Notes under the pieces: generated by a model | Database searches by the model: none | What the model was told of the DNA's origin: nothing | Seen by the model: only the letters and a program-made list of their open reading frames with translations | Part shown: piece by piece, positions 18,801 to 59,164 of the stretch | Numbering within the stretch: position 1 is the first letter of the stretch | How the letters are laid out: the number at the start of each line of letters is the position of its first letter | Program-made: the position numbers and the translations under genes | Assembly (NCBI GenBank): GCA_036867785.1 | Contig: CP145412.1 | Span: 62,001-126,000 of the forward strand | From: Plasmodiophora brassicae | Lineage: Eukaryota | Direction of reading: 5' to 3' | Length of the DNA stretch: 64,000 bases

Positions 18801-21121
18801 CGATCCAGTTGCATCAGGAGGATGGCGGCCACGTGCACAGGGTCGAACGCCTTATCGTCGGGCGCCGCAGATACGTCGGGCAACTCGCCACCGAACAGCT
18901 GAAGCAGCGCTTCGTGGTGCTTGTCGACGTGGTCAGCCCCAGCATCGGCGTTCTGGTCGGCGGACGCGTGCAGGGCGTCGTTGGCGTCCGGCGCGACCTT
19001 CTGGAGCGTGAACGGAAGCGGGACGCCGCCGGTGCCGACGATGGCCGGGTCGAGCGGATCCCCGGTGACGCCCAGCGAGTACTTGTCGCCGGCGAGAATC
19101 GTCCGAAGCGACGTGCCTGTCAGCGCCGCGATCGGCGCCGGCGTGTGCACGTACGACTCCTGGCCGTTGCCGAGCTGGAACTCGCTGGCGCCGCCCCAGG
19201 CCCAGGCCTGGCCGTCGGCGGTGATCGCCACCGAGTGATCGGCGCCCCCATCGACCCAGACGACCCGATGCCCATGGAGAGCGGCCACGCGTTTCGGCGC
19301 CTCCTGGCTGGTCGAGTTCCCATGGCCGAGCTTCCCGCTCAGGCCTTCGCCCCAGGAGAACAGGTCGCCGGACGACGTCACCGCCAGGGCGTGGTCCCAC
19401 CCAGCAGAAACGACGACGACGTTGTGTTCGGCCAGGGCCTCCAGGCGCCTCGGGGTCGATTCCGGCTGGCACGTCCCGTGGCCGAGGACCGGACGCGACG
19501 CCTCGTAGCCGCTCCCCCACGAGTACGCCTCGCCGTTCATGGTCGCCGCCAGGCTGTGCTCCCAGCCGCAGGCGATCATCTTGACGCGCCGGTCGGCCAG
19601 CGCGTCGACAACGGTCGGGACGTTCGCGTCGTGCCGGTGGCCGAGCCCGAGCTGGCCCGACTCGTTCTTGCCCCAGGCGTAGACGACCAGGTCGTCGTCG
19701 ATGGCCATGGAATGGTACGCGCCGCAGACGACGAACGCGACCTTGACGTGCTCCAGGGCGGCCACCGGGGCCGGCTCCGACAGCGACACCGACGACCGAT
19801 GCCCGAGGCGCCCATTGTTGCCGTCGCCCATCGAGAACACGGCGCCGCCGTACGTCAGCAGCAGCGAATGCGACAGGCCGCACGCGATCGACAGGATCGG
19901 GATGCCGGCCACCTTCTCGATCTCCTTCGGCAGCGACTGGTGCGAGGCGCTGCCGTGCCCGAGGCGGCCGTTGTCGCCCTTGCCCCACGAGAGCGCGCGG
20001 TCGTTCATGTCGACGGCCAGCGCGTGGTTCGCGAACGTCGCCACCTGCCGCAGGTTCGTCGAGGAGAACGCGGAGACGCTGACGGGCGCGCCCTTCTTCA
20101 CGGTCGACCCGATCCCGAGTCGGCCGTTCTCGCCGCGCCCCCAGGCGAACAGGTCGCCGCCGGGCAGACGAACAATACCGCGCTCGGCCGCAGCAGCCGA
20201 CGACGCGGAGGACGCGTCGCCCAGCGAGGCGACGATCAGAGCGGATGACGAGCGCGGCGAGGCCGTCGACGCCAGCGGGCCCTTCGTTCGGGCGAGTTGC
20301 TGGAGGAACGGCACGACCTGGAGCTGGACCTGGTCGGCGGTCGTCAGGATCAGCTGCAGAACGGCGAGCAGGTCAGCGAGGGACGCGCGTGCGATCGCCA
20401 GCCCGAGCAGGGCCGAGATCGCCTGCGACCGGTCGTCCCTGGCGACGGCGACCGTGTCCGCGTTCGCCAGCATCGACATCAGGAACCGGGAGATCGCGTC
20501 GAGCACGCCGAGGTCGTCCGACGACGTCTTCGTCATCGGGGCCATCGACGACAGCAGCGGTAGCAGGACGTTCAGGATCGACGACGACACGGTCGGGTCG
20601 GCCGGGTCGGCCACGTCCATTGTCGCACACATCAACCGAACGCCAATCATGGCTTCGAACGGCAACGACGACGACGACGACGACGACGACGGCACTGCAA
20701 CGGGCGGGTCGGACGATTTCGACGACGTCGACGATGACGGTGCCGCGCGATGCGGTTGACGATGATGGAGCTGGCCGATGGAGTCGGCGACGCGCCTGAG
20801 CAGTCGGGCTCGGAGCGCGGCTCTGGACCGGTCGGCGGCGGCGATGTCGTCGACGTTCGCCGATATGCGGCGGATCAGGCGGTCGACCAGATCGGCGACC
20901 TGGTCGCGGTCGGCCCGGTCGGCGCCGAGCATGGCCTCCTCGAGGCCGTCGTCGTCGTCCAGGTCGGCCTGGCGATCGGCGGCTGACGCCGGCGCCTGTT
21001 TGAGTTGCTGGGCGATGTAGTCGATGTCGAGGAACCGCGACAGGTCGACGTGCGTCCAGTCGACGGACGGGTCGGACAGCGACGACGACCGGGAGCGGGC
21101 GGCGACGCCGGCATTGCCCAT
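9803..21121 (-). CDS. Giant HERC-like E3 ubiquitin ligase (RCC1 repeats, LamG-like, UBA, FN3, SPRY, HECT), intronless, ~3770 aa
   Basis: About 7 RCC1 repeats (FAWGRGENGRLG, VACGWEHSLA-like). UBA: MGFDREFCRLAL..NWDENAAVEFLL. SPRY: GVHRWDI..GDVVGVVLDLDHRTLSY. HECT: FVGEGVTDNGGPYRE..LPQTHTCFF with catalytic Cys. First ATG at 21121 (MGNAG). Confidence 0.93.
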   Translation of the reverse strand: MGNAGVAARSRSSSLSDPSVDWTHVDLSRFLDIDYIAQQLKQAPASAADRQADLDDDDGLEEAMLGADRADRDQVADLVDRLIRRISANVDDIAAADRSRAALRARLLRRVADSIGQLHHRQPHRAAPSSSTSSKSSDPPVAVPSSSSSSSSLPFEAMIGVRLMCATMDVADPADPTVSSSILNVLLPLLSSMAPMTKTSSDDLGVLDAISRFLMSMLANADTVAVARDDRSQAISALLGLAIARASLADLLAVLQLILTTADQVQLQVVPFLQQLARTKGPLASTASPRSSSALIVASLGDASSASSAAAAERGIVRLPGGDLFAWGRGENGRLGIGSTVKKGAPVSVSAFSSTNLRQVATFANHALAVDMNDRALSWGKGDNGRLGHGSASHQSLPKEIEKVAGIPILSIACGLSHSLLLTYGGAVFSMGDGNNGRLGHRSSVSLSEPAPVAALEHVKVAFVVCGAYHSMAIDDDLVVYAWGKNESGQLGLGHRHDANVPTVVDALADRRVKMIACGWEHSLAATMNGEAYSWGSGYEASRPVLGHGTCQPESTPRRLEALAEHNVVVVSAGWDHALAVTSSGDLFSWGEGLSGKLGHGNSTSQEAPKRVAALHGHRVVWVDGGADHSVAITADGQAWAWGGASEFQLGNGQESYVHTPAPIAALTGTSLRTILAGDKYSLGVTGDPLDPAIVGTGGVPLPFTLQKVAPDANDALHASADQNADAGADHVDKHHEALLQLFGGELPDVSAAPDDKAFDPVHVAAILLMQLDRLSREQRYSATLLRQDEITSVPFCIDVRPVCFERLVALIRQASARLSAVLTDNDMQDEAQGQKTAVPVFIMRSSLRLLRCNVRRLVLAQQPVAALGFDLHTNSDTTSSCVDRPAARFALDTLNRLLLWLVDADQPGETRAPTAVWSGADAIRSEVVELLQVGLDLFYPSNDAKIDLLKTSICGTTSVAKLIGPAVLERMAHSSMTALLVPQQQSSSSSASARADTRQLLDLLLLLVNRVALLDSSCLPLLRFLSALQAHLIAWVAAEQTELSVGIVVDYAQVVLETALQLCRIARQSLTATISSTLCSSLVGAIVPVLVQSLSLLGLSDKLFPFLLRLVAELDNVAVVARCHATPGLDESARADQGIDALIHIVADALIDILCRQISAGDVPGDDACQAVEREGDDDLRPWLESPLFCMGESRRHGGGTDDAVDVGRCKKARSTPHALSSYVITPCDCSEFINDLLEERGPGGRFWVWLNGAMRAERVGAPQPWLDRACRAAFAAIVHHRRLVVEAVAYSRLIVSKNIDRGGPERRGGAYLRVPVELVEAWREAQGIRMQIMFRKTQAMADNDGDDHDHFTYESAVATVLAKASLLLSTAPAPADDLRHGLFVPDEEDDEEEDVDDLNAHHEAAFLHETAQGDDPDEMVVAGTPVAVLESWAKDDGRQGSDPTEIPINVIDVDNAEEDTDVDKRGARGPTSFPPAQAYDDEVFVGDVPKPCETGRQWRRLRGLVVSALRWRSLLRITLPTPMKQKLQRDSPFADLRRFFNDSTVVSVGAIRVALRRRQTRALQRCCGLRHLYGLLTTIQHSGIRAKLLVCLPRALQFGSPLQGVDGCGWRASVQVQRQALAIMNIAVETLSNAAAHPTGLDDQTCRAALLVLAQRLHRLDHGLMWQSSAFTVVQSLLTTPSPLRSLAWAVFRVLASQLARGPKRIGVVLDAIHNELQSCVQTRRAVDKSPKRARRQSASAHTGGGQGGALPRGSSLLLSTPVSVRSDQLGYRLPIATSSTHAVPSSDYSVMLWVMPVASPAAAPGPTADASSAVLQTVLVRFGSLQVFAPKLCLSRYDHKLQAVVTTSTGNEVVQSPASLPMHAWTHVVFSMEKRAATLTVTPEATGQPVVTRKTLQGSPRQPSSSSSSSPFFIGKALDSDVHGFEGRVAQVAFIRRAVSDSELGETFAGGRPSGDPADRASCQLLSLLWSIGPKSLSGSGRWVGSLLELLEHDGAALAVRIRVLRLLRRLLPLLPIERLQSPHGRGSDRIERGSMLTSAEFLVAFLMDAVASLVWTWEPAGSSSSSSSSSSPVRTEHHRMAVADEAIQLLRSLLDSADDAWAAVVSHAIRTALQGIAGLLREPIAVNSPAVAYAIGALAVIGGHCPMMRLGARVRLPDGVLGAVTWFRSRSLTMHVLVDGEDSSRIVNVRNVVLVDEMNAAGAAQRFSDVLLRLFTLALAERRTAPQGPASPPPPKSGPRLTVVTSTDGGDAETIVEAERAVIRSRLSSSLLKAVCLMIRQSSSSGSFAFDADLLGELVYVASLPTRLETRMDRMALEYKHQFAWARLRYGRAVHNNVGGVDVDPHEDHPPVVESPTAALPSPLASPTLTAEQRAQEVKVDHVAAMGFDREFCRLALSNSNWDENAAVEFLLVNLETLEAQKRAAEAVIAARPLASPRAGGNARRGRPSQSPKAPAVDIATCLDGLPPVDASLVEDHSTKETATDPFVERFFPEGSSSSLPITSFLNVPGQFVSPGKGGGAASSPGGSSSGPPAVGLDDDAPDLVYPDELRSVREMDDALGVIFARDAVVDALVHSDRASSQLAAVCRQDPHMTLRFIKLVAFRNLGALPVQERRLLRQLALLVQTQGPAAQGLVLEECLRHLEMAATPDWSGCVWGHRDLSLTDADALSKPRVELAMWMVRDLVDLPSDVAPVVRRLAHCLRSSNLPLRECIADLLTALAYRIGDDDRDTLQAFVAAVRASAVRRQTEQRMAGEEDRLIKSRYLAAMLALLGAVDDAERRLADPSSSSCGGGGGQPAPTPEEITTDAIELFWDGPASAEFALDMRPAATTTSDATDVPPAFHEVYRGGARAFRAQALDELTAYEFRVRDLTHGRASDPVTLLTYPALRWDAHNARASGRARVRLSHCALTATFDAGSDKWRTLLANRGYASGVHRWDICLDRMSKGYIFIGVGTASANPDTYVGGDAHGFGLFVSDRSRYHGRNKVKGGAKYGDQMAQGDVVGVVLDLDHRTLSYALNGNDLGVAFDDLPVAPAAKLFPAVSFYHRHDAVSFGTARRVRQTPHASSLATTTTMTTQAARVARRIATATRFARRLLSPSSSSSPACASHFFDLAYAFWRSWVPSDHRLLATGGGGGVVRADVSRAACRRVGLVLRRRVRRLQDGAVAGVLVGVATGDDDGRPVAVVSGDGDADPDLVPVDSLVRSAPIVDDDDGDGDARAAAARWTLREFVEHGGRRALDDDDARLVRACNDAADRLGVDPLSLLYDEVAAAAGVDDDDVGACARFALVRTFNLLVSQVLPYLAVQGAAPSGPRLSMSLGALVRRLRPVVVTRLKAQALADVLHQTATYTKPSEDPYEDPPDLRQITLNRHLAAARASSPSEAERLASSLFGQAATQLGVMPVRDLRRGFVRMLDDGQERTFKVKFVGEGVTDNGGPYRECFNEFVAELQSPALLPLLVATANARDAQGGAGRDRYVPAPACARPDLFRLMGHLVGIAVRNKIHLDLRLPALVWAALVGLEPTRAHLREVDAQFADRLDDALLNDDALDDDDDLTFECTLGDGRTTVDLVPFGRQVRVTKENRGDWARLAEQCRLHEADAQIGAIRDGFAAIVPLATFELLTVDEVEAIVCGRADFSVDLLRSVTVYEGGVSPDDAHVVYFWQVLSEMTPDEKGEFARFAWARTRLPVRADQFTTKFKIQPMPGGEGLQHAADGQLPQTHTCFFSIALPRYSSAAVLRERLLYAARNCQTLDRDLKLSDAEIAEIGDV

Positions 21122-21700
21122 TGGGGCGGGGCGGGCGGGCGGGCGGGCGGCGACGATCACAATCGAACCCCCGGGCGCAGCAGCCCACCACCGCGCGCGC
21201 GCGCCCTGCTCTCACCCAGTCAAAGTCTGTATGACGATTTGCGGCACTGACGATCCCGATCACAGCCGGGCGCGAGATCGACGGTTACATTTTATTGTTG
21301 TTCCGCCACAACCAGGGAGCCCGTTTCCTGATTTTGCGCCTTCCCTCCCCTCCCGTCGGGTCCTCCGTTCTCGGAGCCGCGTACGGCACCCCCGCGGGCA
21401 CGACCCCCCGCTGGACGGAAGCTGCTTGCGGGTGACGTCCCCTGTTCCGACGTCGACGTCCTCAGAACCGCCCCACCCACGCGTCGAATCCTGCGCATTC
21501 CCAGAACAGCTCGCCATTGTGCCGCCCTCCCTGGCACCAGAGTCGTGGAAGCCGGGGCGGCGCCCATCGTGAGGTACCTACGTACGTACCGTCTAGAAGG
21601 CCCTGCAGGCCAGTGGCGGCTCGCAGGCGGTTTCAGACTTTCAGTCCCCCCGCCACTCAAGTCCCTATTTTTGTCGTCGCACCGCCCGCCACTGGCGACG

Positions 21701-23784
21701 ATGGAGGAGACCAACGGCGACGTCGACGACATCGCGTCGCTGGTCGACGACGACGTTGACACGGCCGACGGCGATGTATCCGAGGGGTTCTTCGGGAAAG
21801 TCGACACGTGCCCGCGTCAAACGATCCATCGGCACGCGAGGCGGGCCCCCGGCAACGGCCGTCACGTCCGGCGGCGCCTCGCCGGCGAGGTCCTGTCCAG
21901 AATCAAGGTTCCCCCCGCGGCTGAGAATCGGCGCTCACCACAGCGCGCTCTGACACGCGCGCGCAGGACATTGCTCGAACAACGGGTCTACGCCGAGTAA
22001 CCGCCGCGTCCGATGTCGACCTGGCGTGTAACGACGACGGTCAGGTACAGATGCACGTCTTGCTGCACTTGGTAGCGCTGGTGTCGCTAACGCGATGGCC
22101 AAGTTGACCCATTTGGGCCAAGAGGACCACACGGGCCCGATCGAGTACAAGTACATGCTGCTGGCGCCGTCCCCCGACCGCATCGAGAACCTGTGCACCC
22201 AGATGAACTTCCGGCTGTCGGAAGGTGCTGGCCAGGCCGTCTACGAGGTCGTCCTGCGCCCACGTTTGACTGCGTCGCTCGTGTCCTAACCGCAAGGTGA
22301 CACAGATTGGCGTTCGCGACTGTGGCGATCCGGCTGGGTTGTCGGACGAGGACCTACGCGCGTCCATCAGGACGATCCAGACGATGGCCGAGATGATCTC
22401 CTGCGACTGTTTCATTGTCGGCGTGCATCGCGGGCGTCTGGGGAAGACCGCCCAGCTGTACGTGACGCGGACGTCGAGGCTGGACGTGCCTGCCGACGTC
22501 CGCATCTGCCTCAGCGGGCGATCCGGTTCCGGGAAGAGCACGCTGATTGGCGTGCTGTCGAGTGGAGCGCTCGACAACGGCGTTGGATCAGCGCGGACGA
22601 ACGTGTTCCGTCACCAGCACGAGCTGGCGAACGGGCTGACGTCGTGCGTTAGCCGACAATTGATCGGATTCGACGCCGGCGGGGGCATCACGAACCATGA
22701 CGCTCTCGTGCGAAGCCTGCCATCGGTTGTCGCAGCGTCGGCCAGACTCGTGACGCTCATCGACCTCGCTGGCCACAAGCGGCACTTGAAGACGGCGCTG
22801 TACGGGCTGGCGTCGCAAGTCCCCGACTACTGCTGCATTGTCATCGCGGCGCGGGACGCCATGGACGAGGGTTCCCCGTTGCCGGAGCACCTGGACATCA
22901 GCGTTCGCCTGCGGATTCCCGTCTTTATCATCGTCAGCAAAGCGGACCTCGTCGACGACGCCGTGCAGGTCGCCCAGCACCTGTCTGCACGAGTTGCCGT
23001 CAGGACTCAGGTCATCGAGACTGTCGTGACGCAGGACCTGGCCGACCGGTGCCTGGACCTGCGCCTGATTCCGATCCTTGTCATCAGTGGGAAGACAGGC
23101 GTTGGCCTGCCCACTCTGCGACGTTTCCTGAGGCTCCTGCGCAAGCCCCGCGTTTGGGAGAAACGGAGGGATGACAACCTGTTCGAGTTCCACTGCGATG
23201 AGGTCCACGATGTCGACCGGGTCGGCACCGTCGTATCCGGCGTCGTCCTGAACGGCGTCTTCGAGGTCGGTACTCGATGATGGGGCTCCCGTGTATCCGC
23301 GTGTGATTATTCGTGCCTGCAGGTCGGTCAAACGGTCAAGCTCGGCCCTGTGGAGAACGGCACGTACGTCGAAGTGATGGCGGAATCCATTCACGTACAT
23401 CGGACGAACGTGCGGCGAGCCGTTGCAGGCCAGGCGGTCAGCGTTGCCTTGCGGGGCGTCAAACGGTCGCACGTTCGCAAGGGCATCGCCTTGATACATG
23501 TCGATCGCCCGCCGTCCGCATGCACAGAGTTCACTGCCGATGTGACAGCGCTGTCGCCATCGAACCCGTTCGCTGTCGGTGCACAGTGCGTCGTGCACGT
23601 GAGCACCGTCAGCCAGCTGTGCACCGTCGTTGCCGTTCACAACCAGAGCGTTGTATTCAGGTTCGCCCATAGAGCCGAGCACGTGTCGCAGGGCGCTCCG
23701 CTCATCTTCCGCGATGATCGCGTCCAAGGGTGCGGGTTCGTCACCGGCGTCAACGTCGTACCGTCTGGTGGCAGCCACTGTTGA
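21701..23784 (+). CDS. GTP-binding protein 1/2-like translational GTPase, multi-exon (start uncertain)
   Basis: GPIEYK..LCTQMNFRLSEGAGQAVYE|IGVRDCG; G1 GRSGSGKST; LDNGVGSARTNVFRHQHE; G3 DLAGH; G4 SKAD; EF-Tu-like domains II and III. Confidence 0.85.
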
Positions 23785-48200: not shown

Positions 48201-51181
48201 CAAGAATTCGGTCACGAAGAAGACGACAGCTTGTTTCGAACCTAGGCAAGAAGCGCTATTTGGCATGCTGCTCGCGCCAATACTAAATTCTGCAATGGTC
48301 GCAGTCTGGATTACATTGTTGTTAAGATGCCAAGGTGGTCGGTTTGTCATAGCGACGTTCTCCAAGCCCTGACGTTCGCTGTTAGATGGGATTTGCGCAA
48401 GTTCTGGCGCGTCTCGAATCACCTGGGGAGCAGTATGAAGAGTGTAGGCGAAATCATGGCAATCGGACGTAGTTTCGAAGAGGCTTTCCAAAAGGGTTCG
48501 CTATGAGTCCTGTCAGGGTCAGATTGACGACTGACCACTTTCAGGCGTCCGAATGGTGGACGGAGAGCTCGATGGGTTTGGGGACTCGGTAGGCGATGTG
48601 GAGACGTTGACTAGAGACGAACTGGACAATGCGCTTCGCAACCCGGACGATCGTCGGCTCCTGTATCTCGCAGCAGCGCTCAGAAGAGGTATGCTCTTCG
48701 TCGCCTGCGTCGTCTCGTTCGCTCATCATCTTCAGGGTACACTGTGGAACGTATTCATGAGCTAACGTTCATCGATCAGTTCTTCCTTTGCAAGCTGCGA
48801 AACATCATCCAGATCGATATGACGTTGAGCGCATCGCCTTCCTTGTGGTCGGTGTCGCCATCGCGACTTCTGGAGGCCAAACGTGTAGGTCTGTTGTCAG
48901 TTCGTCGTGCTCTGCACTGACGATTGTGCCTCCAGGCTGGATTTGGCGACCAACAGATTGGCCGTTGCTGTCGCGTTACCGAACCTGAGGTTCGCAAGTA
49001 CCGCCAACAGTCCGGCGTCCTGCCCTACGTCAAGCAAATCGACACGCTGGCGGCCGAGTTCCCTGCGGTCACCAATTACCTGTACATGACGTACAATGCC
49101 GTCGAGCACGACGTGGCGTTCACGACTCGTGGCGTCATCGTTCTTGGCTGCGGCGCCTACCGTATCGGCAGCAGCTGTGAATTCGATTGGTGTGCCGTGT
49201 CCTGCCTGCGCACGCTTCGTTCCCTGGATGTCATGTCCGTCATGATCAACTATAACCCGTTCGTGCGAACCCTGTATGAGATCCGATACGTTCTCTGATG
49301 TCGTTGCATCCCAGGGAGACAGTCAGCACTGACTACGGTGGGCCCTGACCCGTTGCCTCACGTGTGCCAAGGTACCCTAGAATAACAACTTTGTTACAGA
49401 TGAGTGCGACCGCCTTTACTTTGAAGAACTGTCGTTCGAACGTGTCGTCGACATTTACGAGGTTGGTTGGCTCAAGTCGTTGCCGTCACCCACTAAGCGT
49501 CGTGTATGGTACAGTGTGAGATGGGCATGGGCGTTGTCGTGTCTGTTGGCGGCCAGATTCCGAACTGTCTCGCTCTGCCTTTACATCGATACGGGGTGCG
49601 GATTCTCGGAACGCACCCGAACTCGATTGACAGCGCCGAGGACCGCCACAAGTTCAGCGAATTGCTGGACAGTCTGGGCGTTGACCAACCGGAATGGCAA
49701 GAACTGACTACGGTACGTACAAATATCTCCTGGCGTGCTGAATGCCAACTTGCCGCCTGACCATCGCCCATCGTTAGATTCCTGATGCCCTTAAGTTCGC
49801 TGCGAAGGTCGGATATCCTTGCCTTGTTCGTCCCAGTTACGTGTTATCCGGCGCCGCCATGAACGTCGCCTTTACGGATGCCGACTTGGAGGTTAGGGTC
49901 TCCATTACTGTTCGCTTCCCGTTGGCTCAGTTGTTCGGTAGGACTTCTTAACGCAAGCGTGCAATGTATCCACCATGGCGCCCGTGGTGATGACGAAGTT
50001 CATCGAGAATGCTAAAGAGATCGAGTTCGACGCCGTCGCCCACAAGGGCGTCGTCGTTAACTATGCGATCTCGGAGCACGTTGAAAACGCTGGCGTTCAC
50101 AGTGGTGATGCCACGTTGATCCTGCCGGCCCAGAAGCTGTACATGGAGACGATTCGGTTGGTGAAGCGGGCCGCGCGCCGCATTGCTGCTGCCCTGAACA
50201 TCACCGGGCCGTTCAACATCCAGTTCCTGAGTCGCGACAATGAAATCAAGGTCATCGAATGCAACCTGAGGGCGTCACGATCGTTCCCGTTCGTTTCGAA
50301 GACGTTCAACGTGAACTTCATCGAGCTCAGCACGAAGGCCATGGTCGGGAAACCCGTTAAACCCCAGACCATCGACCTGTCCGATATACCATTCGTCTGC
50401 TGCAAGGTTGCTATTCGCTTCAGCCTGTATTCGGTAGACGCTAACGGCGTGCTATAGGCGCCCATGTTCTCATTTACGCGTCTGGCTGGAGCCGATCCAG
50501 CGTTACGCGTCGAAATGGCGTCGACTGGAGAGGTCTGCCCTTTGGTCGGCATGTCGATGCGATTGACGAACACTGTCGCGTCAGGTGGCGTGCTTTGGTT
50601 CGGATCGTTACGAAGCGTTTCTGAAGGCGGTGCTGTCCACCGGGTTCCGATTGCCGAAGCGGAACATCTTGTTCTCGGCCGCGTCCGTGTCGGCCCGACT
50701 GGAATTTCTGGAGTCTGCCCGTGAATTGCAACGCATGGGGTTCTCTCTGTACGCGACTCATGGGACGGCCGCGTTCCTCGAGGAGAACGATGTCAACGCC
50801 GTCGTCGTGCACAAGCTTAGCTCGGGGCAGCACCCGGACGTCATTGACAAGATTAAGGCTGGTGAGATCGACCTGGTGATCAACATCCCCGATTCCAAGA
50901 ATCGACAGCAGGTATGCTTGTTCCTGGGTGGTGTTCATCGGTCGTGCTGAGGGCCACCCGAATCAGATGACCGATGGCTATCACATTCGTAGAACGTCGG
51001 TCGACTTCTCCGTGGGCCTCATCACCAACATCAAGTGTGCCGTGCTTCTTGTTGGCGCTTTGATTCGAGTAGGCATCGTGATGAGGAACCCCGCTGACAT
51101 GCCTCTGACCTATAATAGGTTAAGAGATTCAACCTGAAGTCGTGGTGCGACTACCTACGCGATGGCCGAGGCGGGATCTGA
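45275..51181 (+). CDS. Glutamine-dependent carbamoyl-phosphate synthetase II (fused GATase, CPSase and MGS domains), ~25+ introns
   Basis: [29 protein letters not shown] (catalytic Cys); [69 protein letters not shown]. Ends ...[14 protein letters not shown]. Confidence 0.95.
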
Positions 51182-51339
51182 TTCTCGCACCCCTGCTCAC
51201 CATTGTTCTCCACATATACGATGTTTGTGACACCATCCGAACTATGAAACATCGCCACTAGCGACAGACCACCGGTCGGCCTGAACGTGCATAAGGTTTG
51301 CTATATTCCATATTAGCGGGACAGGTGCAGATCGGAAGG

Positions 51340-53400
51340 CTACCAATAGTCGCCACAGGAGCACTGGCCGTTGCGGAAGAAGTGGTGCCGGCTGGCATCG
51401 CGCGTGAAGATGTCGCGTTTGTACAGGGCAGAGATGCGCTTCGACGTTTCGTGGCAGTCGGGGCACACCCTGAGGTTCTTCGTCAGGCGGATCGGCTCGT
51501 GAGCTGCCAGATGAAGCAGGCCATAGGCGATGGCGAGCACCTCGCTGTGCAGCGACAGCGAGCGTCGCGCTTCCTGCGCCGACGAGAACCGACTTGCGAC
51601 GAGCTGCGACGTGTCAGGAGCGTACCCATGCACATCCAGGTGCCGCACCAGCTCCGCATGCTTCTCCTTCAGCGCCGCATCCTTGAAGTACTTCTCGTCC
51701 TCGGATACGAACGCGACCAGCCCCGACGTTGGCAGGTACAGCGACGTCTTCGCGGGCGTCTTGCTTAACCCCAGGCGGTGCATCTCCTCGCGCAACCGAA
51801 CGCTGTCGTCGTTGCGGCGCGCGCTCCCGTAGATGACGGCCATCAGCGAGTACGCGGACGCCACGTGCCGCTGCGACGCGTTCGGGATCGCTTGTATCCT
51901 CGCGAACGCGCGTTCGGCCCTGACGACGTCGTCGTGTTTCCGGCAGGCGCTCAGCAGCGTTAACCAGGCGATGATGTCGTCCCCGGCCGTCTCCGTTGCG
52001 ATGCGCTCCGCCTCGTCCAGGTTGCCGACCCTGCCGTGCAGATCGATCAGGCAGGTCATGTGGGCCCCGTCAACCGGGAACGATCCCCGCCGCTGGAACT
52101 CGTCGACGATCGCGTTCGCCTGGTCCAGGTCGCCGACGTGGCTGCACCCAGCGAGCAGCGACGCCAGCGTCGGCGGTGTCGGTTCCAGCCCAGCGCGCTT
52201 CAGCTTGTCGTACGTCTGCCGCGCGTTCGCCAGCATGCCATGGTGGCTGTACGCGGCGATCATGGCGTTGAACGGGGTGACGCCCGGCGTCGACACGAGA
52301 CATCGTCGCCGGAACACGTTCTCGGCGGCGTGCAGGTCGCTGCAATGCGCGAAGGCGGACACGAACGCGCTGACGACAAAGTCGTTGCGCAGCACGTCGT
52401 TCGGCAGGTTCGTCGCGTGCTCGTACAGGATTTGGACGGCGGCGAGGTCCGAGGCGCGACCGCAGGCGGCGACGAGGAGGCTGAGGACGGGCGTGTCGAC
52501 GGGAAGGCCCCGGGCGACCATCTTCCGGACCAGGTCCAGGGCGTCGCTGATGCGGTCGAGCTTCGCCAGGACGGAGAGGATCTTGGTGTACAGGAACGCG
52601 GACGGCTGCATGCCGGTGGTGTCGATGGCGTCCAGGGCGCGCATGGCGGCGTCGATGCGCTCCTGGGCCAGCAGCGGTTTGATGAGGTTGGAGAACGGGC
52701 GCTGGTCGGCGGGCGGGCAAAGGCGTTTCAGGCGGAGGAGGTCGAACAGGCGTTCGGCGGTGTCGGCCGACTGACGACTGAACATGGCCTCGGCGCAGCA
52801 GGCGGCGAAGATGGACAGCAGCTTCGTGTCGATGGCGACGAGGTCGTTGTCGGCGATGTCGGCGACGAGGAACAGGGCGGACGCCGGGCGCTTGGCGACT
52901 CGGCAGATGTTGGCGATGCCGAAGATGACGTTGTAGGTGCGCGGGCCGCACCGGGCGTACGCGTCCAGGGCGTCGTCGAGCAGGACGGGTTCCGCGCTCT
53001 GACACGCGGCCAGGAACGAGCAGAACATGGCGTCGCTGATGTAGATGCCGCGAGCCTCGGCGGCGCGCATGACGTCGACGGCCCCGCCGGGGTCGTACCG
53101 TTTGCAGAACGCCATCATCGTCGTGTAGAACCGGAAATCGGCGTCGATGCGCTCGTCGAGCACGCGACGGAACACGACCCAGGCGTGGTGCGGGTCCGTC
53201 TCGGCCTGCAGGGCGCGCACCGCCGCGACCGCCGACGGCCGCCCCATGAACGATTCGAAGGAGCGCGAGATCGCCGGGTCCCGCTCGCGCCGCACGACGT
53301 GGCCCGCCGCCCGCCCAGCAGCAGCAGCAGCAGCAGCAGCAGACGACACCCACCGCGGGCCATGTTGCAGTCGACCAATGACGCAGCGAGCTGCAGCCAT
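51340..53400 (-). CDS. PLS-class PPR protein with E1/E2 and DYW cytidine-deaminase domain, intronless, putative mitochondrial presequence
   Basis: About 11 PPR motifs ending in P2-L2-S2 (PFNAMIAAYSHHG, TLASLLAGCSHVG, HMTCLIDLHGRVG); E1 AWLTLLSACRKH; E2 AYSLMAVIYG; GYAPDT; HSEVLAIAYGL; KNLRVCPDCH; HHFFRNGQCSCGDYW. Confidence 0.95.
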   Translation of the reverse strand: MAAARCVIGRLQHGPRWVSSAAAAAAAAGRAAGHVVRRERDPAISRSFESFMGRPSAVAAVRALQAETDPHHAWVVFRRVLDERIDADFRFYTTMMAFCKRYDPGGAVDVMRAAEARGIYISDAMFCSFLAACQSAEPVLLDDALDAYARCGPRTYNVIFGIANICRVAKRPASALFLVADIADNDLVAIDTKLLSIFAACCAEAMFSRQSADTAERLFDLLRLKRLCPPADQRPFSNLIKPLLAQERIDAAMRALDAIDTTGMQPSAFLYTKILSVLAKLDRISDALDLVRKMVARGLPVDTPVLSLLVAACGRASDLAAVQILYEHATNLPNDVLRNDFVVSAFVSAFAHCSDLHAAENVFRRRCLVSTPGVTPFNAMIAAYSHHGMLANARQTYDKLKRAGLEPTPPTLASLLAGCSHVGDLDQANAIVDEFQRRGSFPVDGAHMTCLIDLHGRVGNLDEAERIATETAGDDIIAWLTLLSACRKHDDVVRAERAFARIQAIPNASQRHVASAYSLMAVIYGSARRNDDSVRLREEMHRLGLSKTPAKTSLYLPTSGLVAFVSEDEKYFKDAALKEKHAELVRHLDVHGYAPDTSQLVASRFSSAQEARRSLSLHSEVLAIAYGLLHLAAHEPIRLTKNLRVCPDCHETSKRISALYKRDIFTRDASRHHFFRNGQCSCGDYW

Positions 53401-53579
53401 TTATGCGCCGGGCCAGTCAGTGCCTGAGCTGCACAGCACGTGCAACTGCCGCCGCTCGCGCGTCAGTCACGGAGTTCCCCCGGGGGGCACTGGGAGCTGC
53501 ACGCACTCTCCGTTGAGCTGCAGGGTGGGGGCGCGCGCGACGGGGCTCCGCACCACTACACAGGCGGCCACGCTGCTGT

Positions 53580-56500
53580 TTACTCGGGAAGGATCTGTCC
53601 TGCGGAGCGGAGCAGGTCGTCGATGATGCCGACGGCGTCGTCGAGGTGGGTTTTGATGGCTTTGCGGTCGACCGTCACGGCGCGGGGGCGACGATCGGAC
53701 CGGGCGTTCTCCTTGTCGGACTCGATGGCGGACAGCAGGTCGTGGCCCTGGAAACGCGCCCCGATCCGGTCCAGCGTTGCGCGGGCGTCGTCCAGGTCGT
53801 TGTCGTCGGCGCGAACCTCGTCCTCGATGTGATCCAGACGGCGTCGCAGGGCGTCCAGACGGTTCTGTTCGAGTTGCCCGTGAATCTACGAACAGGGCTC
53901 AGTGTGTCGCCATGCTGGGATCACGTTCGCCCAGTAGGGTCTCACTGATTCGGCATCGGCCCCGCAGAGGTTCAGATCGGCGCGAAGGCGCTCGGCGCGC
54001 TGCAGGACTTGATCGAGGCGGCCCTCGAACTGGCCAATGTTGTCGCGCAGTGCGCGCACCTGCGAGAACCGCGATTCCGCTGCGGAGTATCAGATTGGTT
54101 ACCCGCGCACATACGGAACCGCAAACGTGGCGACTGACGAAGTTGCGAGATCGCATCGGCGTCGTCCTTCGAGAGCACCATATCGGTGACGGCGAAGGCG
54201 CAGCCGACGCCCGGATCGGCGCCGCTAACCAGGTCGGCTTCGACGACCAGCGACGGCTCCTCGTGGATGTCCTGGACCGACAGGAACTTCATCGACGGCG
54301 CCCCGCTGTCTAGCAGGGCGGATGGCGGCAACGCCGGCGACGACGTCGTCTGCGTCCAGGCCAGGCCATCGCCTTGCAAGGCGGCCGGGTTCAGAATCGC
54401 CAGCAGCCCGGTTCGGAATCCGGTGATCCGGCTCGGATCGCCGCCTTCCGGGACCGGGAATGCCGACCGGACCTCGTCCAGGTGCGCGTGCATCTTCGCC
54501 TCAAGCAACTCAGCGTCAATCGCACTTAGAATTCGGCCCTGCACACACTCAATGAGTACAACAATGCCATGGGGGGCGCCCGTATTCCCAGACTCACGTC
54601 CGATCGTTTCAAAGCCGCCAGCGAAGGTCCCGGTCGTGGTGTGGGCAGACGCCGAAACGTCTTCGGGATGCCCGGGCGACACAGCTGTACATGGTGGAGG
54701 TCGTCCGCGTTCCGCTCAGGTCGGTGGTCGCCTGTCGGGACCTCGCCTCGATCTTCGCCGAGCAGCCATTCGCTAAGTTGGACCGAGAACGGCACAGGCT
54801 CGGGTGCTATGGACTCCACATCCGCCTCGGTTTCGTCGTTCACGTTCGTAGACGCAGTTGCCTCATCGTCGTCCGCATCGTGCCCGTCGCCATCGTCAGC
54901 GACAGAGGCGTCTTCACTGTGCTCGGAGCTAATAGCCATCTCGGCAGGGCACACGACATGCTCCTCTTGCTCTGTGCCTGCTGCAGACGGTTCCCGCTCA
55001 GGTTCCTCACCCAACACATAGTCTTGCACAACCGGCTCCTGGGGCGATGCGGGTTCCTGCGCGACATCGGGAACCAGGACGGTTTCGTTTTCTTCCGTCA
55101 TGGTCGTCACGTCCGCACATCGTACCCAGACGTCGGCAGGAAGCCTGCGGACGTCTGTATCAGCGGTCTGCACTGAAGAAGCAGATGTTCGAACTGGAAC
55201 GGGCGGCTTCTGGAAGGTCGTCAACGGCTCCACACTGCGGCCGGCGACGGCGCTTCGGACGAGCCGAGGTATCTTCAGGGGCGATGCGGCGCGGTGAGTT
55301 CGCTTCGGGACCAGCGGCTGGAACAGGCGCGCAGGACGCGCCTGCTTCAGGGGCGGGACCGCCATCATGCGACGCGGTTTCGGATCAGCGTTCACCCTCA
55401 CGAGAGGGCCCGGTTCCGCAACGTGGCCTCGCCTCGTCGCCATCGAAGGCCAGATGGAGTTACACACGCTGTTGCCGCCGCTTGGCGTCGTCGTGCGCAT
55501 TCCAGACCGGAACGTTGACCAGATGCACGATCGTGGCGTCGCGTCCCGGTTGCCGTCAACGGCAACGAAACGGGGATCGACGTCGTCCTTCACTTCTTCG
55601 TGTTCCACTTCAGCGACAGCACGCGGCACCGGTTCCGGTTGCTGCCGTTGTTTCGGCGTCGTCGCCGTCGCCTTCAGCAGGGCGAGGAGGTGACGGGGCG
55701 ACAGCTGCGGGCCCAGCATCTTCACGACGTCGTCGCGGGACAGCATCGTCCCCATCTCGTTCAGCAGGTGCACGTCGATGTCTTCCGGGCGCGTCACCGC
55801 AGCAGGCGGCGTTTGCGTCGCCGGAGCCGCTGCCGGAGCCGCCGCCGGAGCAACCACCGCCGGCTCCGGCGGGGAACTTTGGACTGTCGAGGCAGCACTC
55901 CTTACCGTCGACATCGGTGTCGCGGTCGAATCCGACGTCGTCCTTGCTGTGCCCGTCGTCGTCGTTAACGTGGTGATCGACGACAGTGGACTCTTTCGTG
56001 ACGACGATGACGACGACGACAATGACGATGGGCGATTGGCGGCGGTGGTCTTCGCGACCGTGACGTCGAGGCGGGGTACGGGTGGCGCCGGTTTCGGAGC
56101 GTCCACGACGATCGTCAGCGGCTTCGCTGGCGGGAGCGATACGGGCCGTCCCGTTTCCGCCGCCCATTGCCGCGGCAGGTCGACGGTTATCCAGCGAATC
56201 GCATTCGAGAGCGCGTCCGCCATCGGCGCCGTCGTCGTCGTCGCCGCCGCGAATTCCTGGCAGACGCGATCGACTTCGCCGGCGTCGTCGGCGAACCATG
56301 GCCCTGGCGGTGACGTGTCGCGCTCCACAGTGACAGCGGGGAGGCGCGCGACAGCAACGTCGAACGCTGCCCGGTGCCGGGCGACAATGCGGGCCGGGTC
56401 CAGGAACCGGGCCACGTTCCTGGCGGTCGCCACCGACGGGTCTGCGTTCATCCCGGCGATCACCCGGTCCTGCAACGCCGACTCGGGCAACGTCGGCAAC

Positions 56501-59164
56501 ACCGACGCCAATCGCATCAGGCGTAACGCGCTGGACACCGGATCGTCGGTGTCGTGCAGACAGTGCCACGCCCAGACGCATTGCTGCCAGGCGTCGACGT
56601 TCTCCGCTGTCAGCACCACCCGGCACCGTTGCAGAAGCGCACGAACGGGCGCGGGCGCCGCGCGCCCAATCGCGCCCCTACACAGGTCCAACCATTCCCT
56701 GCAGGCGCGGCCGGCGACGTCCTCGCGCTTCGTGTGTCGTCCGAGGTCGATCACGGCGCCGACGTCCTGGCTCGCGATAACGGCGTCGGCGTACTTGACG
56801 ACGACGTCGTCGTCGGCGCCGAACGCCGTCAACGCGACCGCCACCGCCACCATCGGGATCGTGCGACGCGTAACCGCGATCGCGTCTCGGTACCGACGCA
56901 GGCGAAGTAGGTCCCTGAGGCACAGGTCGCGCGTCCATCGCTCCACGACGAGCGCCTGGCGACGCAGGCGTACACCTGGCCCCGGGAACGGCCCGGGCAC
57001 CGTCACGAACTCGTCGTCGTTGTCGTGCGCGACCATGACCGCGGTCAGGACGCTCGCCAAGTCGTCCCTGATGGCGTCCGGCGACGCTTGCGACAGGGAC
57101 ACGGCCCCGGTCATGTCCTGGCGGTACAGGGCGAGTCGGAACCGGGCACGAACATCCCCGGTTTGCTGCAGGGCGCGATCGCACCCTTCGAGGTCGCCCT
57201 CCAGGAACAGACGTTCAGCGACCCGGCCGTCCACATCGTCGTCGTGGATGAAGTCGCCGATGTGCCGAACAATGGCCATCGCCACTCTGCGACAATCGGC
57301 GTCCGGCCCCGTCAGCCGTCGCCAGCAGGCGGACAACATCGGCGGGCAATGCAGGGCGTGATCGACCTGCAACGCCCGGTCGTCGTCGCATTCCACGACG
57401 AGGCGATCTCGCCTGTCGGCTGCCGACGTCCGGAACGACGCCATCGAGACGTACCCGGCGATTTCGTTCCGGTAATGGACGGCGACGGCGTCGTCGACCG
57501 CGTTCAGGGCGACGAACGCGTCCAGATGGCGGCCGGCGTCGATCAACGCCCCGATGAGCGAGCTGGCGTGTTGTACCAGCGCGTGGAGATCGGACGGGAG
57601 GTCGGCGAGCAGGGCAAACAGTGCCTCGAGCGGGTCGGCGGGTCGGCGCCGGTCCCAGACCGCGTCGCCGACGCCGAATGCGACAATGGCGGTGCCGTTC
57701 GACACGACAAGTTCCGGTTTCGACGGGTGACCCGCCAGCGACGGTTTCGCGTTCGGCGGTCCGGTCGGGAACGTGACCGGGAGGAACGTGGTCGGGTCGG
57801 CACGGCTCGGCATCGGCCCAGCGCCGACGCAGACGAGCGCGACGGGGCCTGACCGCCCGACGAACGCGATGTCCAACGACGCCGACAGGAGGCAGACGAG
57901 GCTGGCGTTGACGTCGACCCAGGTCAGGTCGACGATGTCGAGGTCGCTGTGGCTGGGGAACGACCCGATCCCGATCGCGACGGACACGATCGACCCGGTC
58001 GGCATCGCCACGAAATGCAGGGCGGCGTCCCGAGCGTTGCGGTGGTTGACAACCAGAGCGAGGACGGCCCCGTGACGGTCCCATTCGTGCAGAAGGGGCA
58101 ATCGTGCCCCGCTGTCGACCGCGACGTCAACGTCGGCGGACAGCAACGGCGCCCTGCTCCGCATCGACACGATACTGCCCTGCCGACGACGGAGCGTGTC
58201 GCAGGTCTCCTCGTCAGGAGCGGACGGCCCCGACACGTACGCCATGTTCAGCGGGATCAGCAGGCGGCGAACGCGCACGGAACCGTCCACGATGGTGCAT
58301 TGCGTTGCCAGGCAGGTCGTCCCGAGAATCGGGTCCCGGTCGACGAAGTGGAAGCGGATCGGCGACCCGACGCGGAAGTCGTGGTCGACCTGAACCCACC
58401 GGGCGCGACCTTCCAGATCGATCAGCATCGCGCCACCAGGTGCGATCCGGGCCCGCGTTTGGCACAGCCACAACCCTTCGCCCTTCGTGTGAAGCACGAT
58501 GGAACGCGCGTCGTCCGATATCCCGATTCGATCGTAGCCTGCGAGGGGGGGAGACGTCGCCTCAGTGAGCGCTCTTGCTCTGGAGGTGACATTTCCAGGT
58601 ACCCAGCCGGACGGGAGGTGGCGGGATGGCGAAGACGGACGAGGCTCGTTTGGCGCGTTGCTTGCTGAACACGGCGGTGGTGACAGGCGGTGCTGGCACC
58701 GTGTCGCATTCGCCGCTGAACACGCTCCAGATCAGGAGGTCGCCGTTACCGAGCGCCGCGACAACGAAATTCCCTGGCCGCATGCTGGGTTGGAACGCTC
58801 TGCGGTTTCAGACGCGGATAGGATGGCGATTACCGGAGCGGCTGCTGGCAGCGATCGCGAACCGGCACCCGAACTGGCGTTCGAAGAAGTTTCGAGGGCA
58901 GCGCCCGTTGGCGTAGAGAGGCGCGAGTCGAGTTGCATCCGGGACGTCGTCGATCAGGACCATGGACGGGTTGTCGAGCGTGTCGCTGGAGGTGGCGCCC
59001 GGTGCCGTATCGACCTGTACGCCGCAAGGCGATGAGAGGGCGGACATTCCCAGACGAGCGGATGGAGTCGAGCCACGTACGTAGCGGACAGTGGACCATG
59101 GTTTCGTCCTAGGGATTGTGGCAACCAGGCCGACATCTACGCGCACGGTACCTCCGCTGGGCAT
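53580..59164 (-). CDS. CPLANE1: CPLANE1 (C5orf42/JBTS17)-like ciliogenesis protein, multi-exon
   Basis: N-terminal RTKPWSTV, NGDLLIWS and DLTWVD..PTTFLP..SLAGHPSKPELVVSNG resemble CPLANE1 N-terminal blocks. Long central exon; coiled-coil terminal exons end ..GQILPE*. Confidence 0.6.

What the first reader, a model, noticed from the sequence alone, without database searches (positions are those of the whole stretch)
51340..53400. Plant-type PPR-DYW RNA-editing factor in a non-plant protist genome
Seen: a complete PLS-P2L2S2-E1-E2-DYW architecture with zinc ligands and catalytic Glu (HSE...CPDC), a literal DYW end, a degenerate PG box (KTPAKTSL), and an Arg-rich, acid-free N-terminus (MAAARCVIGRLQHGPRWVSS) resembling a mitochondrial presequence. 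The gene is intronless and lies between intron-rich host genes. Known: such proteins perform organellar C-to-U editing in land plants and occur patchily elsewhere (e.g. Naegleria). Inference: this organism may edit mitochondrial RNA, and the gene may have arrived by horizontal transfer, which would be notable in an intracellular plant parasite.
Basis: partly seen in the sequence, partly recalled or inferred. Interest (0 to 1): 0.82.

Follow-up and report, generated by a model that had tools for sequence, protein, structure and literature searches.

The report
Clubroot parasite PPR-DYW RNA-editing gene
This is a real, expressed gene of the clubroot parasite Plasmodiophora brassicae that looks like a plant-type organelle RNA-editing enzyme; it is one of about thirty related copies already labelled in public databases, so the open question is whether the parasite's mitochondria really edit their RNA.

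Summary
Window 51340-53400 (-) is one uninterrupted 686-codon ORF ending in DYW. It has PPR repeats, E1 and E2 motifs and a full-length DYW deaminase domain with HSE, CPDCH and H..CSC intact.

It is Plasmodiophora brassicae PBRA_006614, annotated as a partial 621-aa protein. It is not a lone gene. It belongs to a clade of 30 mutually divergent DYW paralogs, of which 29 were shown to be P. brassicae proteins. The "degenerate" PG box is a trait of this family, not decay of this copy.

Contigs from four public runs splice the neighbouring CPS gene but cover this ORF without any joint, so the gene is intronless and very probably transcribed.

Mitochondrial C-to-U editing is the best reading but was not tested here. 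Transfer from the angiosperm host lineage is rejected: the family sits apart from all sampled land-plant sequences. An older transfer cannot be judged.

The genes already carry "DYW domain-containing protein" labels, and a 2026 survey counts 31 DYW domains in Rhizaria. This is a new member of a known kind, of moderate interest.

The parts
51340..53400 (-). Complete intronless coding sequence of the PPR-E1-E2-DYW protein (686 codons plus stop at 51340-51342). It equals PBRA_006614, with 65 more N-terminal residues than the public 'partial' model.
   Evidence: ORF list and translation. 100% identity to P0002, which is 621 aa. Colinear contig pieces without joints.
51288..53479 (-). Minimum extent of the transcript as covered by stand-alone contigs: X9 covers 51288-53302 and X6 covers 51307-53479. 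The 3' end converges with the CPS gene's 3' end.
   Evidence: table 8. The strand is inferred from the ORF, because contigs do not give a strand.
53281..53400 (-). Residues 1-40: Arg-rich, nearly acid-free N-terminus with an Ala run, predicted disordered. Putative mitochondrial presequence.
   Evidence: 7 R/K, 1 D/E, first acidic residue at 39. (pLDDT below 50 for residues 1-34). No targeting predictor was available.
52600..53277 (-). Residues 42-267: one capping helix plus six divergent PPR-like helix hairpins.
   Evidence: AlphaFold2 helices H42-53 to H249-261. They score 3 bits or less against plant-derived P/L/S motif profiles.
51979..52599 (-). Residues 268-474: canonical P1-L1-S1-P2-L2-S2 repeats of 35, 37, 34, 35, 36 and 30 aa. 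Residue 5 / last residue: T/D, S/N, S/G, N/T, A/D, T/D.
   Evidence: Motif profiles built from 244 sequences give 24.4, 18.6, 30.2, 38.7, 34.5 and 37.8 bits. Register taken from the 9kfx and cPPR alignments and from the AF2 helices.
51763..51978 (-). Residues 475-546: E1 and E2 motifs. E1 carries the family signature 'RAERAFA'.
   Evidence: E1 48.7 bits and E2 32.7 bits. Pfam E_motif 22.6 bits, below its cut-off. Alignments.
51343..51762 (-). Residues 547-686: DYW cytidine-deaminase domain. It has a variant PG box (KTPAKTSLYL), H618-x-E620, C646-x-x-C649-H650, H673, C680-x-C682 and a terminal DYW.
   Evidence: Pfam PF14432 E 3.2e-29. 7o4e E 3e-24 by sequence; TM 0.86 and rmsd 3.6 over 138 columns by fold. 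Residue table.

Best explanation
The gene encodes a nuclear-encoded, mitochondrion-targeted, site-specific C-to-U RNA editing factor of Plasmodiophora brassicae.

Proposed mechanism:
- The array of about 12 PPR repeats plus E1 and E2 binds a short single-stranded stretch of a mitochondrial transcript just upstream of one cytidine.
- The C-terminal zinc-dependent DYW deaminase converts that cytidine to uridine.
- This copy keeps every catalytic and zinc-binding residue, so it should act on its own.
- It is one member of a lineage-specific family of about 30 paralogs. Thirteen of them have lost a catalytic residue. By analogy with plants, those would serve as specificity factors that need an active DYW domain in trans.

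Shown here: domain architecture, intact catalytic residues, the fold, an intronless expressed gene, the family expansion, and a native (non-host) origin of the DNA.

Inferred only: mitochondrial import, RNA binding, deaminase activity, and the existence of editing sites.
For: Architecture and fold:
- Full-length DYW_deaminase match plus PPR families.
- Residues 339-686 align to the solved synthetic PPR-DYW editing factor 9kfx (E 1e-88) and to the OTP86 DYW domain (E 3e-24).
- The AF2 model has mean pLDDT 91.1. Foldseek's best hit is 9kfx_A, the synthetic PPR-DYW bound to its target RNA (E 2.6e-24, 638 columns), and 7o4e_B matches at TM 0.86.
- The canonical P1-L1-S1-P2-L2-S2-E1-E2 order is recovered with motif profiles.

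Catalytic residues:
- H, E, C and C are all kept in this copy and in 17 of 30 paralogs.
- The second zinc site is kept in 30 of 30 paralogs.

Family size:
- A clade of 30 representatives, each its own cluster at 50% identity.
- 20 of 20 looked up are P. brassicae proteins, and 9 more are named.

Targeting:
- This copy has an Arg-rich, acid-poor N-terminus.
- 26 of 30 paralogs reach a net charge of +3 or more in their first 30 residues in at least one gene model (my count).
- No hydrophobic signal-peptide-like segment is seen; the maximum 19-residue Kyte-Doolittle mean is 1.08.
- The organism has a 114-kb mitochondrial genome with 32 protein genes as possible substrates (PMC6823432, section 7 read).

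Expression:
- Contigs of 4 runs from 4 studies join the CPS exons across GT..AG gaps, so they hold spliced cDNA.
- They cover the ORF colinearly, as stand-alone contigs of 2173 and 2060 nt in two of the runs.

Precedent:
- Another rhizarian group, the paradinids, has PPR-DYW genes together with demonstrated mitochondrial C-to-U editing (PMC11946409, abstract and passages).
Against: - No editing site was observed. Mitochondrial DNA and reads could not be compared here.
- The authors of the mitochondrial genome paper mapped transcriptome data to the mtDNA, and the sections I read mention no editing. In that paper 'RNA editing' occurs only in the reference list.
- The PG box departs from the land-plant consensus: G to A in this copy, and the Trp is replaced family-wide. 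In plants this box matters for activity (recalled, not from a call).
- 13 of 30 paralogs lack a catalytic residue, so the family is not uniformly a deaminase family.
- The run type 'RNA' is the tool's guess.
- Targeting rests on composition only.
- The six N-terminal repeats do not fit plant P/L/S profiles, so the plant PPR code may not carry over.
Confidence: 0.62

Rival explanations
1. The protein binds mitochondrial RNA but does not edit it. It would act in splicing, cleavage or stabilisation of transcripts of the unusually intron-rich mitochondrial genome, with the DYW domain kept for structure or for nuclease-like activity.
For: - The P. brassicae mtDNA has 54 introns and problematic splice sites, and no editing is reported for it (PMC6823432, section 7).
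- 13 of 30 paralogs lack a catalytic residue, yet 30 of 30 keep the second zinc site.
- The PG box is altered family-wide.
- A few plant DYW proteins act in splicing or cleavage (recalled, not from a call).
Against: - This copy and 16 other paralogs keep H, E, C and C exactly. That is hard to explain without selection for deamination.
- The best structural and sequence matches are editing factors.
Confidence: 0.2
2. The gene is a recent acquisition from a host plant (angiosperm, Brassicaceae), or it is host DNA mis-assembled into the parasite genome.
For: The architecture is of land-plant type, and the DYW domain is 40-55% identical to angiosperm domains. The parasite lives inside plant cells.
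Against: - GC3 is 0.886, against 0.78-0.79 in the flanking parasite genes.
- The gene is embedded between spliced parasite genes within single contigs, and it is held in 20 runs of 10 studies.
- It is only 44-54% identical even to its own paralogs.
- All 30 paralogs lie on one side of a branch: FastTree support 93, IQ-TREE SH-aLRT 83, and 97 when four unnamed sequences are included.
- All 85 named plant rows lie across a split with support 90.
- A P. brassicae plus angiosperm clade is rejected, delta lnL 99.5, p-AU 0.002. The group was named after the tree had been seen.
Confidence: 0.02
3. The protein is exported into the host cell and acts on host mitochondrial or plastid transcripts as an effector.
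For: - The parasite is intracellular.
- Host PLS-class PPR genes for 'RNA modification' are strongly induced at night in infected Arabidopsis (PMC13247141, passages).
- The protein has the plant-type domain order.
Against: - No signal-peptide-like hydrophobic N-terminus.
- The N-terminus looks like a mitochondrial presequence, and so do those of most paralogs.
- The family diverged far from plant sequences.
- No secretion evidence of any kind was found.
Confidence: 0.03
4. The gene is a decaying or functionless relic of an old expansion.
For: Many paralogs carry catalytic-site losses (13 of 30). This copy's PG box has an extra G-to-A change.
Against: - The 686-codon ORF is intact in a 67% GC gene.
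- All catalytic and zinc ligands are kept.
- The fold is predicted with high confidence.
- Contigs cover it in 4 of 4 runs laid.
Confidence: 0.08

Closest known systems
Land-plant PLS-class PPR-DYW editing factors. Solved examples are the synthetic PPR-DYW 9kfx and the Arabidopsis OTP86 DYW domain 7o4e/7o4f.
   Same: - The same order P1-L1-S1-P2-L2-S2-E1-E2-DYW.
- HxE...CxxCH and H...CxC...DYW are all present, with the plant-type spacing of 26 residues from the Glu to the first Cys (spacing counted from the sequences).
- The fold matches at TM 0.86 to 7o4e_B.
- The gene is intronless.
   Different: - PG box: P-A-K-T-S-L here and P-G-R-T-[ST]-L in the family, against P-G-[RC]-S-W-I in plants.
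- An E1 signature 'RAER.FA' and a small insert at the E1/E2 junction.
- The six N-terminal repeats do not fit plant P/L/S profiles.
- Only 25-31% identity over the whole length.
- The sequences lie across a well-supported split from all sampled plant sequences.
PPR-DYW proteins of paradinids (Ascetosporea, Rhizaria), which have demonstrated mitochondrial C-to-U editing (Yabuki et al. 2025, PMC11946409).
   Same: Both are from the rhizarian supergroup, both are parasites, and in both the PPR-DYW proteins are proposed as the mitochondrial C-to-U enzyme (passages).
   Different: - Paradinids have one to three DYW sequences. P. brassicae has about 30.
- The paper says that paradinid and fungal DYW domains share a two-residue deletion between the catalytic Glu and the CxxC. 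This protein has the full plant-type spacing (my count on the sequence).
- No paradinid sequence was available here for a direct alignment or tree.
DYW-type PPR proteins of Heterolobosea (Naegleria gruberi, Acrasis; here Willaertia magna P0164) and other protists.
   Same: They are non-plant DYW proteins with the same C-terminal domains. In the tree they lie on the non-plant side together with P. brassicae and unnamed environmental sequences. For Naegleria, editing of mitochondrial transcripts has been published (cited in PMC13386178 and PMC11946409; I did not read those primary papers).
   Different: Willaertia keeps a plant-like PG box (PGKTFIE). It is not the sister of the P. brassicae clade. 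The sisters are four unnamed metagenome sequences (SH-aLRT 97).

Membership tests
PPR protein, PLS class, DYW subgroup | Tandem array of pentatricopeptide (helix-hairpin) repeats | tested here: met
   Pfam PPR E 8.2e-23 and PPR_2 E 1.4e-18. AF2 shows 12 helix hairpins between residues 57 and 470.
PPR protein, PLS class, DYW subgroup | P, L and S motif variants of different length in P-L-S order, ending in P2-L2-S2 | tested here: met
   Residues 268-474 score best to P1, L1, S1, P2, L2 and S2 in that order, at 18.6-38.7 bits, and they align to 9kfx. The six upstream repeats are inconclusive at 3 bits or less. The profiles were cut from an alignment that uses this protein as its coordinate reference, which favours the register.
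PPR protein, PLS class, DYW subgroup | E1 and E2 motifs between the repeats and the deaminase | tested here: met
   In-session profiles give E1 48.7 bits and E2 32.7 bits. 9kfx aligns through this region. Pfam E_motif is below its gathering score, 22.6 against 27.3 bits.
PPR protein, PLS class, DYW subgroup | DYW deaminase domain with the zinc and catalytic signature HxE...CxxC | tested here: met
   PF14432 at 101 bits against a cut-off of 24, covering 93/93 positions. H618, E620, C646 and C649 are present.
PPR protein, PLS class, DYW subgroup | Second zinc site (H after CxxC, H, CxC) and the C-terminal DYW tripeptide | tested here: met
   H650, H673, C680, C682 and a terminal DYW.
PPR protein, PLS class, DYW subgroup | Canonical PG box (PG.SWIE) at the start of the DYW domain | tested here: not met
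   This copy has P-A-K-T-S-L. The Trp is kept in 2 of 30 P. brassicae paralogs but in 4 of 5 plant reference rows. The beta-hairpin at this place is still predicted, E551-556 and E560-565.
PPR protein, PLS class, DYW subgroup | Import into a genome-bearing organelle | not testable with these tools
   Only composition could be examined: an Arg-rich, acid-poor, disordered N-terminus. No targeting predictor or localisation data were available.
PPR protein, PLS class, DYW subgroup | Site-specific C-to-U conversion in organellar RNA | not testable with these tools
   No P. brassicae mitochondrial sequence could be obtained as a locus.
DYW:KP variant (proposed U-to-C editing domain of hornworts and ferns) | KP-type box and altered C-terminus in place of PG...DYW | tested here: inconclusive
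   The 'TPAK' of this copy superficially recalls a KPA box. However, 13 of 30 paralogs keep PG at the two PG columns (my count from the table) and the protein ends in DYW. The KP consensus is recalled, not taken from a call. The 2026 survey lists only DYW, not DYW:KP, in Rhizaria.

The most novel reading that the evidence does not exclude
Plasmodiophora brassicae, and probably Phytomyxea more widely, runs a large plant-like mitochondrial C-to-U editing system that nobody has noticed.
- About 30 PPR-DYW factors form an old, separately expanded lineage with its own PG-box variant, in which the Trp is lost.
- 17 of the 30 keep the catalytic residues. The other 13 have lost a catalytic residue but keep the structural zinc site, so they would have to borrow deaminase activity in trans, in an organism with no known MORF-type helpers.
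- If this is true, the published annotation of its 114-kb, intron-rich mitochondrial genome was made without allowing for editing. That annotation has 9 of 32 genes with non-ATG starts and reading frames that shifted under the canonical splice sites, and it would need revision.
Probability: 0.4. Interest if true: 0.6.

Novelty: new member of a known kind. Interest (0 to 1): 0.45.

Why it matters
DYW-type PPR proteins are the enzymes of plant organelle C-to-U editing, and their patchy occurrence outside plants is an open evolutionary question. This report places a roughly 30-member, deeply divergent family in an economically important crop parasite and shows that it did not come from the angiosperm host lineage. 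It also gives a concrete, cheap prediction: tens of C-to-U sites in P. brassicae mitochondrial transcripts.

If the prediction holds, three things follow:
- Editing in Rhizaria would extend beyond paradinids.
- The mitochondrial gene models of phytomyxids would need correcting.
- There would be a natural DYW deaminase variant without the PG-box Trp, which is of interest for engineering editing tools.

If no sites are found, the family becomes a case of DYW domains kept for another RNA function.

Tried and rejected
- Whole-genome search of the window's own assembly: no genome is held.
- The look-up of sequencing runs, kind rna: no RNA holder listed. All 14 'RNA?' holders are guesses. I therefore relied on spliced joints in the laid contigs.
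- Direct test of editing: not possible. No mitochondrial sequence of the organism is in any collection I could reach.
- Naming the nearest outgroups: 10 sister-group representatives were looked up and none carries an organism name; they come from ENA, JGI or Logan metagenome records or are a EukProt transcript label. I did not try to resolve them further.
- ESM Atlas: it returned only Streptophyta and Rotifera DYW clusters, with no new information.
- Literature searches:
  - 'Plasmodiophora' + 'DYW' gave 2 papers. I checked one of them, where DYW is a potato gene. I saw the other only in the search listing.
  - 'Plasmodiophora brassicae' + 'RNA editing' + 'mitochondrial genome' gave 11 papers. 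'Spongospora' + 'RNA editing' gave 6. 'Phytomyxea' + 'RNA editing' gave 6. 'Plasmodiophora' + 'pentatricopeptide' gave 22.
  - I saw most of these hits only in the search listings and read passages of a few. None that I examined reports editing or a DYW family in phytomyxids. One transcriptome paper lists 'pentatricopeptide repeat-containing' parasite genes as differentially expressed without further analysis.
- PPR-code target prediction: I read residue 5 and the last residue for the six canonical repeats. With the recalled plant code this gives roughly G-A-?-Y-?-G at positions -9 to -4, which is too degenerate to be useful and could not be scanned against mtDNA. My first register was off by one and was corrected from the alignments.
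- Tree building: the first IQ-TREE call returned no answer. A rerun picked up the finished tree.
I did not pursue it.
Full report
**1. The observation**

The window holds one open reading frame of 686 codons on the minus strand, at 51340-53400. It runs from the first in-frame ATG to the stop and ends ...CSCGDYW.

Pfam finds a full-length DYW deaminase domain at residues 592-686, covering 93 of 93 profile positions (101 bits against a cut-off of 24). It also finds five PPR families above their cut-offs. The E motif scores 22.6 bits against a cut-off of 27.3.

Against solved structures, the best match is a synthetic PLS-type PPR-DYW protein, 9kfx (E 1e-88), aligned from residue 339 to the last residue. 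The isolated DYW domains of Arabidopsis OTP86 and DYW1 also match, at E 3e-24 and 9e-22.

An AlphaFold2 model built with 40 relatives is confident: mean pLDDT 91.1, pTM 0.83. It shows these elements:
- a disordered N-terminus (residues 1-34);
- one capping helix;
- twelve helix hairpins;
- two more hairpins for E1 and E2;
- an alpha/beta domain.

Foldseek places the whole model on 9kfx_A, the synthetic PPR-DYW bound to its target RNA (E 2.6e-24, 638 columns). It places the C-terminal domain on OTP86 DYW (7o4e_B, TM 0.86 by target length, rmsd 3.6 over 138 columns).

**2. Repeat architecture**

I cut motif profiles (P1, L1, S1, P2, L2, S2, E1, E2) from an alignment of 244 DYW proteins, mostly plant or unnamed, and scanned the protein with them. 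Each motif type is the best hit in its own interval:

| Residues | Motif | Bits |
|---|---|---|
| 268-302 | P1 | 24.4 |
| 303-339 | L1 | 18.6 |
| 340-373 | S1 | 30.2 |
| 374-408 | P2 | 38.7 |
| 409-444 | L2 | 34.5 |
| 445-474 | S2 | 37.8 |
| 475-513 | E1 | 48.7 |
| 514-546 | E2 | 32.7 |

The profiles used this protein as the coordinate reference, which favours the register. The scores themselves come from the other sequences.

The six hairpins upstream (residues 57-267) score 3 bits or less. The plant-type PLS pattern is therefore shown for the C-terminal half only.

**3. Organism and gene model**

The protein is 100% identical to 'hypothetical protein PBRA_006614, partial [Plasmodiophora brassicae]', which has 621 aa and starts at residue 66 of the ORF.

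Twenty public runs from ten studies hold the stretch. None is on record as RNA, and the tool's 'RNA?' label is a guess. I laid contigs of four runs from four studies on 47000-57000:
- They join exons across 27 joints, of which 15 are listed. All but one of the listed joints have GT..AG ends and skip 47-65 nt, in the plus-strand gene at 47306-49940. These contigs therefore derive from spliced cDNA.
- The same contigs (X1, X2) or separate ones (X6: 51307-53479, 2173 nt; X9: 51288-53302) lie on the PPR-DYW gene colinearly, with no joint and no indel.
- X6 runs 79 nt beyond the ATG at 53400.
- The other three stop at 53302, where the tool skips a simple repeat (53303-53354) that encodes the Ala run.

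The gene is thus intronless, very probably transcribed, and its transcript includes the upstream ATG. This supports the 686-aa model over the public partial one.

The upstream neighbour carries a CPSase ATP-binding domain. The 1300-aa minus-strand neighbour has at least one intron (54538-54596) and no Pfam match, so 'CPLANE1' is unverified.

Two adjacent T>C differences at 52431-52432 appear in three runs and not in the fourth. They look like strain variation.

**4. It is one of about thirty paralogs**

Word-indexed searches returned other P. brassicae proteins that are only 36-50% identical to this one.

An exhaustive HMMER search with the last 215 residues found 2234 cluster representatives at E of 1e-3 or better, and 112 at 1e-30 or better.

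A FastTree of 270 C-terminal regions holds all P. brassicae rows in a clade of 30 (support 93). Exact look-ups showed that 20 of 20 further members of that clade are P. brassicae proteins, most of them labelled 'DYW domain-containing protein'. With the nine named, that makes 29 of 30. The remaining one, P0016, is Logan-only and was not looked up. Because each row is a separate cluster at 50% identity, these are distinct genes.

The family has its own signatures:
- The PG box reads K.P.[RK]T[ST]L.L, where plants have PG[RC]SWIE. The Trp is kept in 2 of 30 paralogs.
- E1 reads RAER.FA.
- There is a short insert at the E1/E2 junction.

The full H-E-C-C set is kept in 17 of 30 paralogs, this one included. 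The other 13 have lost at least one of these residues, most often the Glu. The second zinc site is kept in all 30.

Arg-rich N-termini are general. By my count, 26 of 30 paralogs reach a net charge of +3 or more in their first 30 residues in at least one gene model. Several of the rest start inside the first repeat, which suggests truncated models.

**5. Origin**

In the 270-row tree, a split with support 90 puts all 85 named land-plant rows (angiosperms, Ginkgo, Diphasiastrum, mosses, Calypogeia) on one side with 103 unnamed rows. P. brassicae lies on the other side with 52 unnamed rows. A profile search with 14 of those unnamed rows gave names to two: Balamuthia mandrillaris (P0165) and Willaertia magna (P0164).

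A second tree used 89 chosen rows: 30 P. brassicae, 23 unnamed, 7 Balamuthia, 1 Willaertia, 1 Adineta and 27 plants. I picked the rows to represent the clades of the first tree, so the other 181 rows were left out. It was built with IQ-TREE, LG+C20+F+G4 by PMSF, quick search, on 208 columns:
- P. brassicae lies on one side of a branch (SH-aLRT 83).
- P. brassicae plus four unnamed metagenome sequences (P0145, P0146, P0149, P0150) has SH-aLRT 97.
- Next come further unnamed rows, then Willaertia and Adineta.
- The plants lie at the far end in a 34-row group (support 84) that also contains Balamuthia.

Forcing P. brassicae and the ten angiosperm rows into one clade costs 99.5 log-likelihood units (p-AU 0.002). 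I named this group after seeing the tree.

Codon usage is native. GC3 is 0.886, against 0.789 and 0.776 for the two neighbouring ORFs.

Contamination and recent transfer from the host lineage are therefore rejected. The tree is unrooted, sampled by similarity to the query, and has long branches. It cannot say whether the family descends from an ancient plant-to-protist transfer, from transfer between protists, or from an older eukaryotic gene.

**6. What is known**

In the searchable library I found no paper that links Plasmodiophora or Phytomyxea with a DYW family or with mitochondrial editing. I saw most hits only in the listings and read passages of a few.
- The mitochondrial genome paper (PMC6823432, section 7 read) describes 32 protein genes, 54 introns, 9 of 32 genes with non-ATG starts, and reading frames that shifted and coding sequences that were disrupted when canonical splice sites were applied. 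Transcriptome data were mapped to the mtDNA, and editing is not mentioned.
- Yabuki et al. 2025 (PMC11946409, abstract and passages) show C-to-U and A-to-I editing together with PPR-DYW genes in paradinids. They state that C-to-U editing had never been reported in rhizarians. They also describe a two-residue deletion shared by paradinid and fungal DYW domains. This protein has the plant-type spacing of 26 residues between the Glu and the first Cys, by my count on the sequence.
- A 2026 survey (PMC13386178, passages) counts '31 DYW in Rhizaria' in its Table S10, without naming species in the main text. The number fits the 30 found here, but I could not see the table.

**7. Verdict**

The most likely function is site-specific C-to-U editing of mitochondrial transcripts (confidence about 0.6). 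The main rival is a non-editing RNA role in the intron-rich mitochondrion (about 0.2).

The gene is a new member of a known kind, already labelled in databases. The worthwhile follow-up concerns the family rather than this single gene: a simple comparison of RNA and DNA on the parasite's mitochondrial genome would settle whether phytomyxids edit.

Noticed in passing
Proteins P0165, P0326, P0329, P0330, P0336, P0350, P0376 (not in the window): Seven Balamuthia mandrillaris DYW proteins form a tight clade (SH-aLRT 100, end branches 0.06-0.15). It sits inside the group of 27 named land-plant rows (34-row group, support 84), unlike the P. brassicae family. This suggests a separate and younger plant-to-amoebozoan transfer, or plant DNA in that assembly.
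   Followed up: no
window 52431-52432: Two adjacent T>C differences (plus strand; codons 323-324 of the PPR-DYW gene) appear in contigs of runs X2, X6 and X9 but not X1. This is most simply a strain polymorphism.
   Followed up: partly
window 51119-51340: The plus-strand CPS gene and the minus-strand PPR-DYW gene converge. In runs X1 and X2 a single contig of 6.6-6.7 kb carries the spliced CPS exons and then the whole PPR-DYW gene, so the two 3' ends overlap or abut.
   Followed up: no
window 53490-58428: The 1300-aa minus-strand ORF (54526-58428) continues across an intron (54538-54596) into a 3' exon that ends near 53490-53519, only about 10-40 nt from the PPR-DYW transcript's 5' end.
   Followed up: partly
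window 10001-22000: A 12-kb stretch has 66-75% G+C, well above the rest of the window at 52-69%.
   Followed up: no
Proteins P0297 and P0233 (not in the window): Two paralogs carry consecutive NCBI accessions (XXQ38441.1 and XXQ38442.1) on the same 923,546-bp contig, so they are probably tandem neighbours. Part of the family expansion may be by local duplication.
   Followed up: no
Several P. brassicae DYW proteins (P0008, P0153, P0157, P0305, P0310, P0321): One NCBI record series labels these nuclear-contig proteins 'unnamed protein product (mitochondrion)'. The contigs are 1-2 Mb long, so the label looks like an annotation artefact. It is not evidence of localisation.
   Followed up: no
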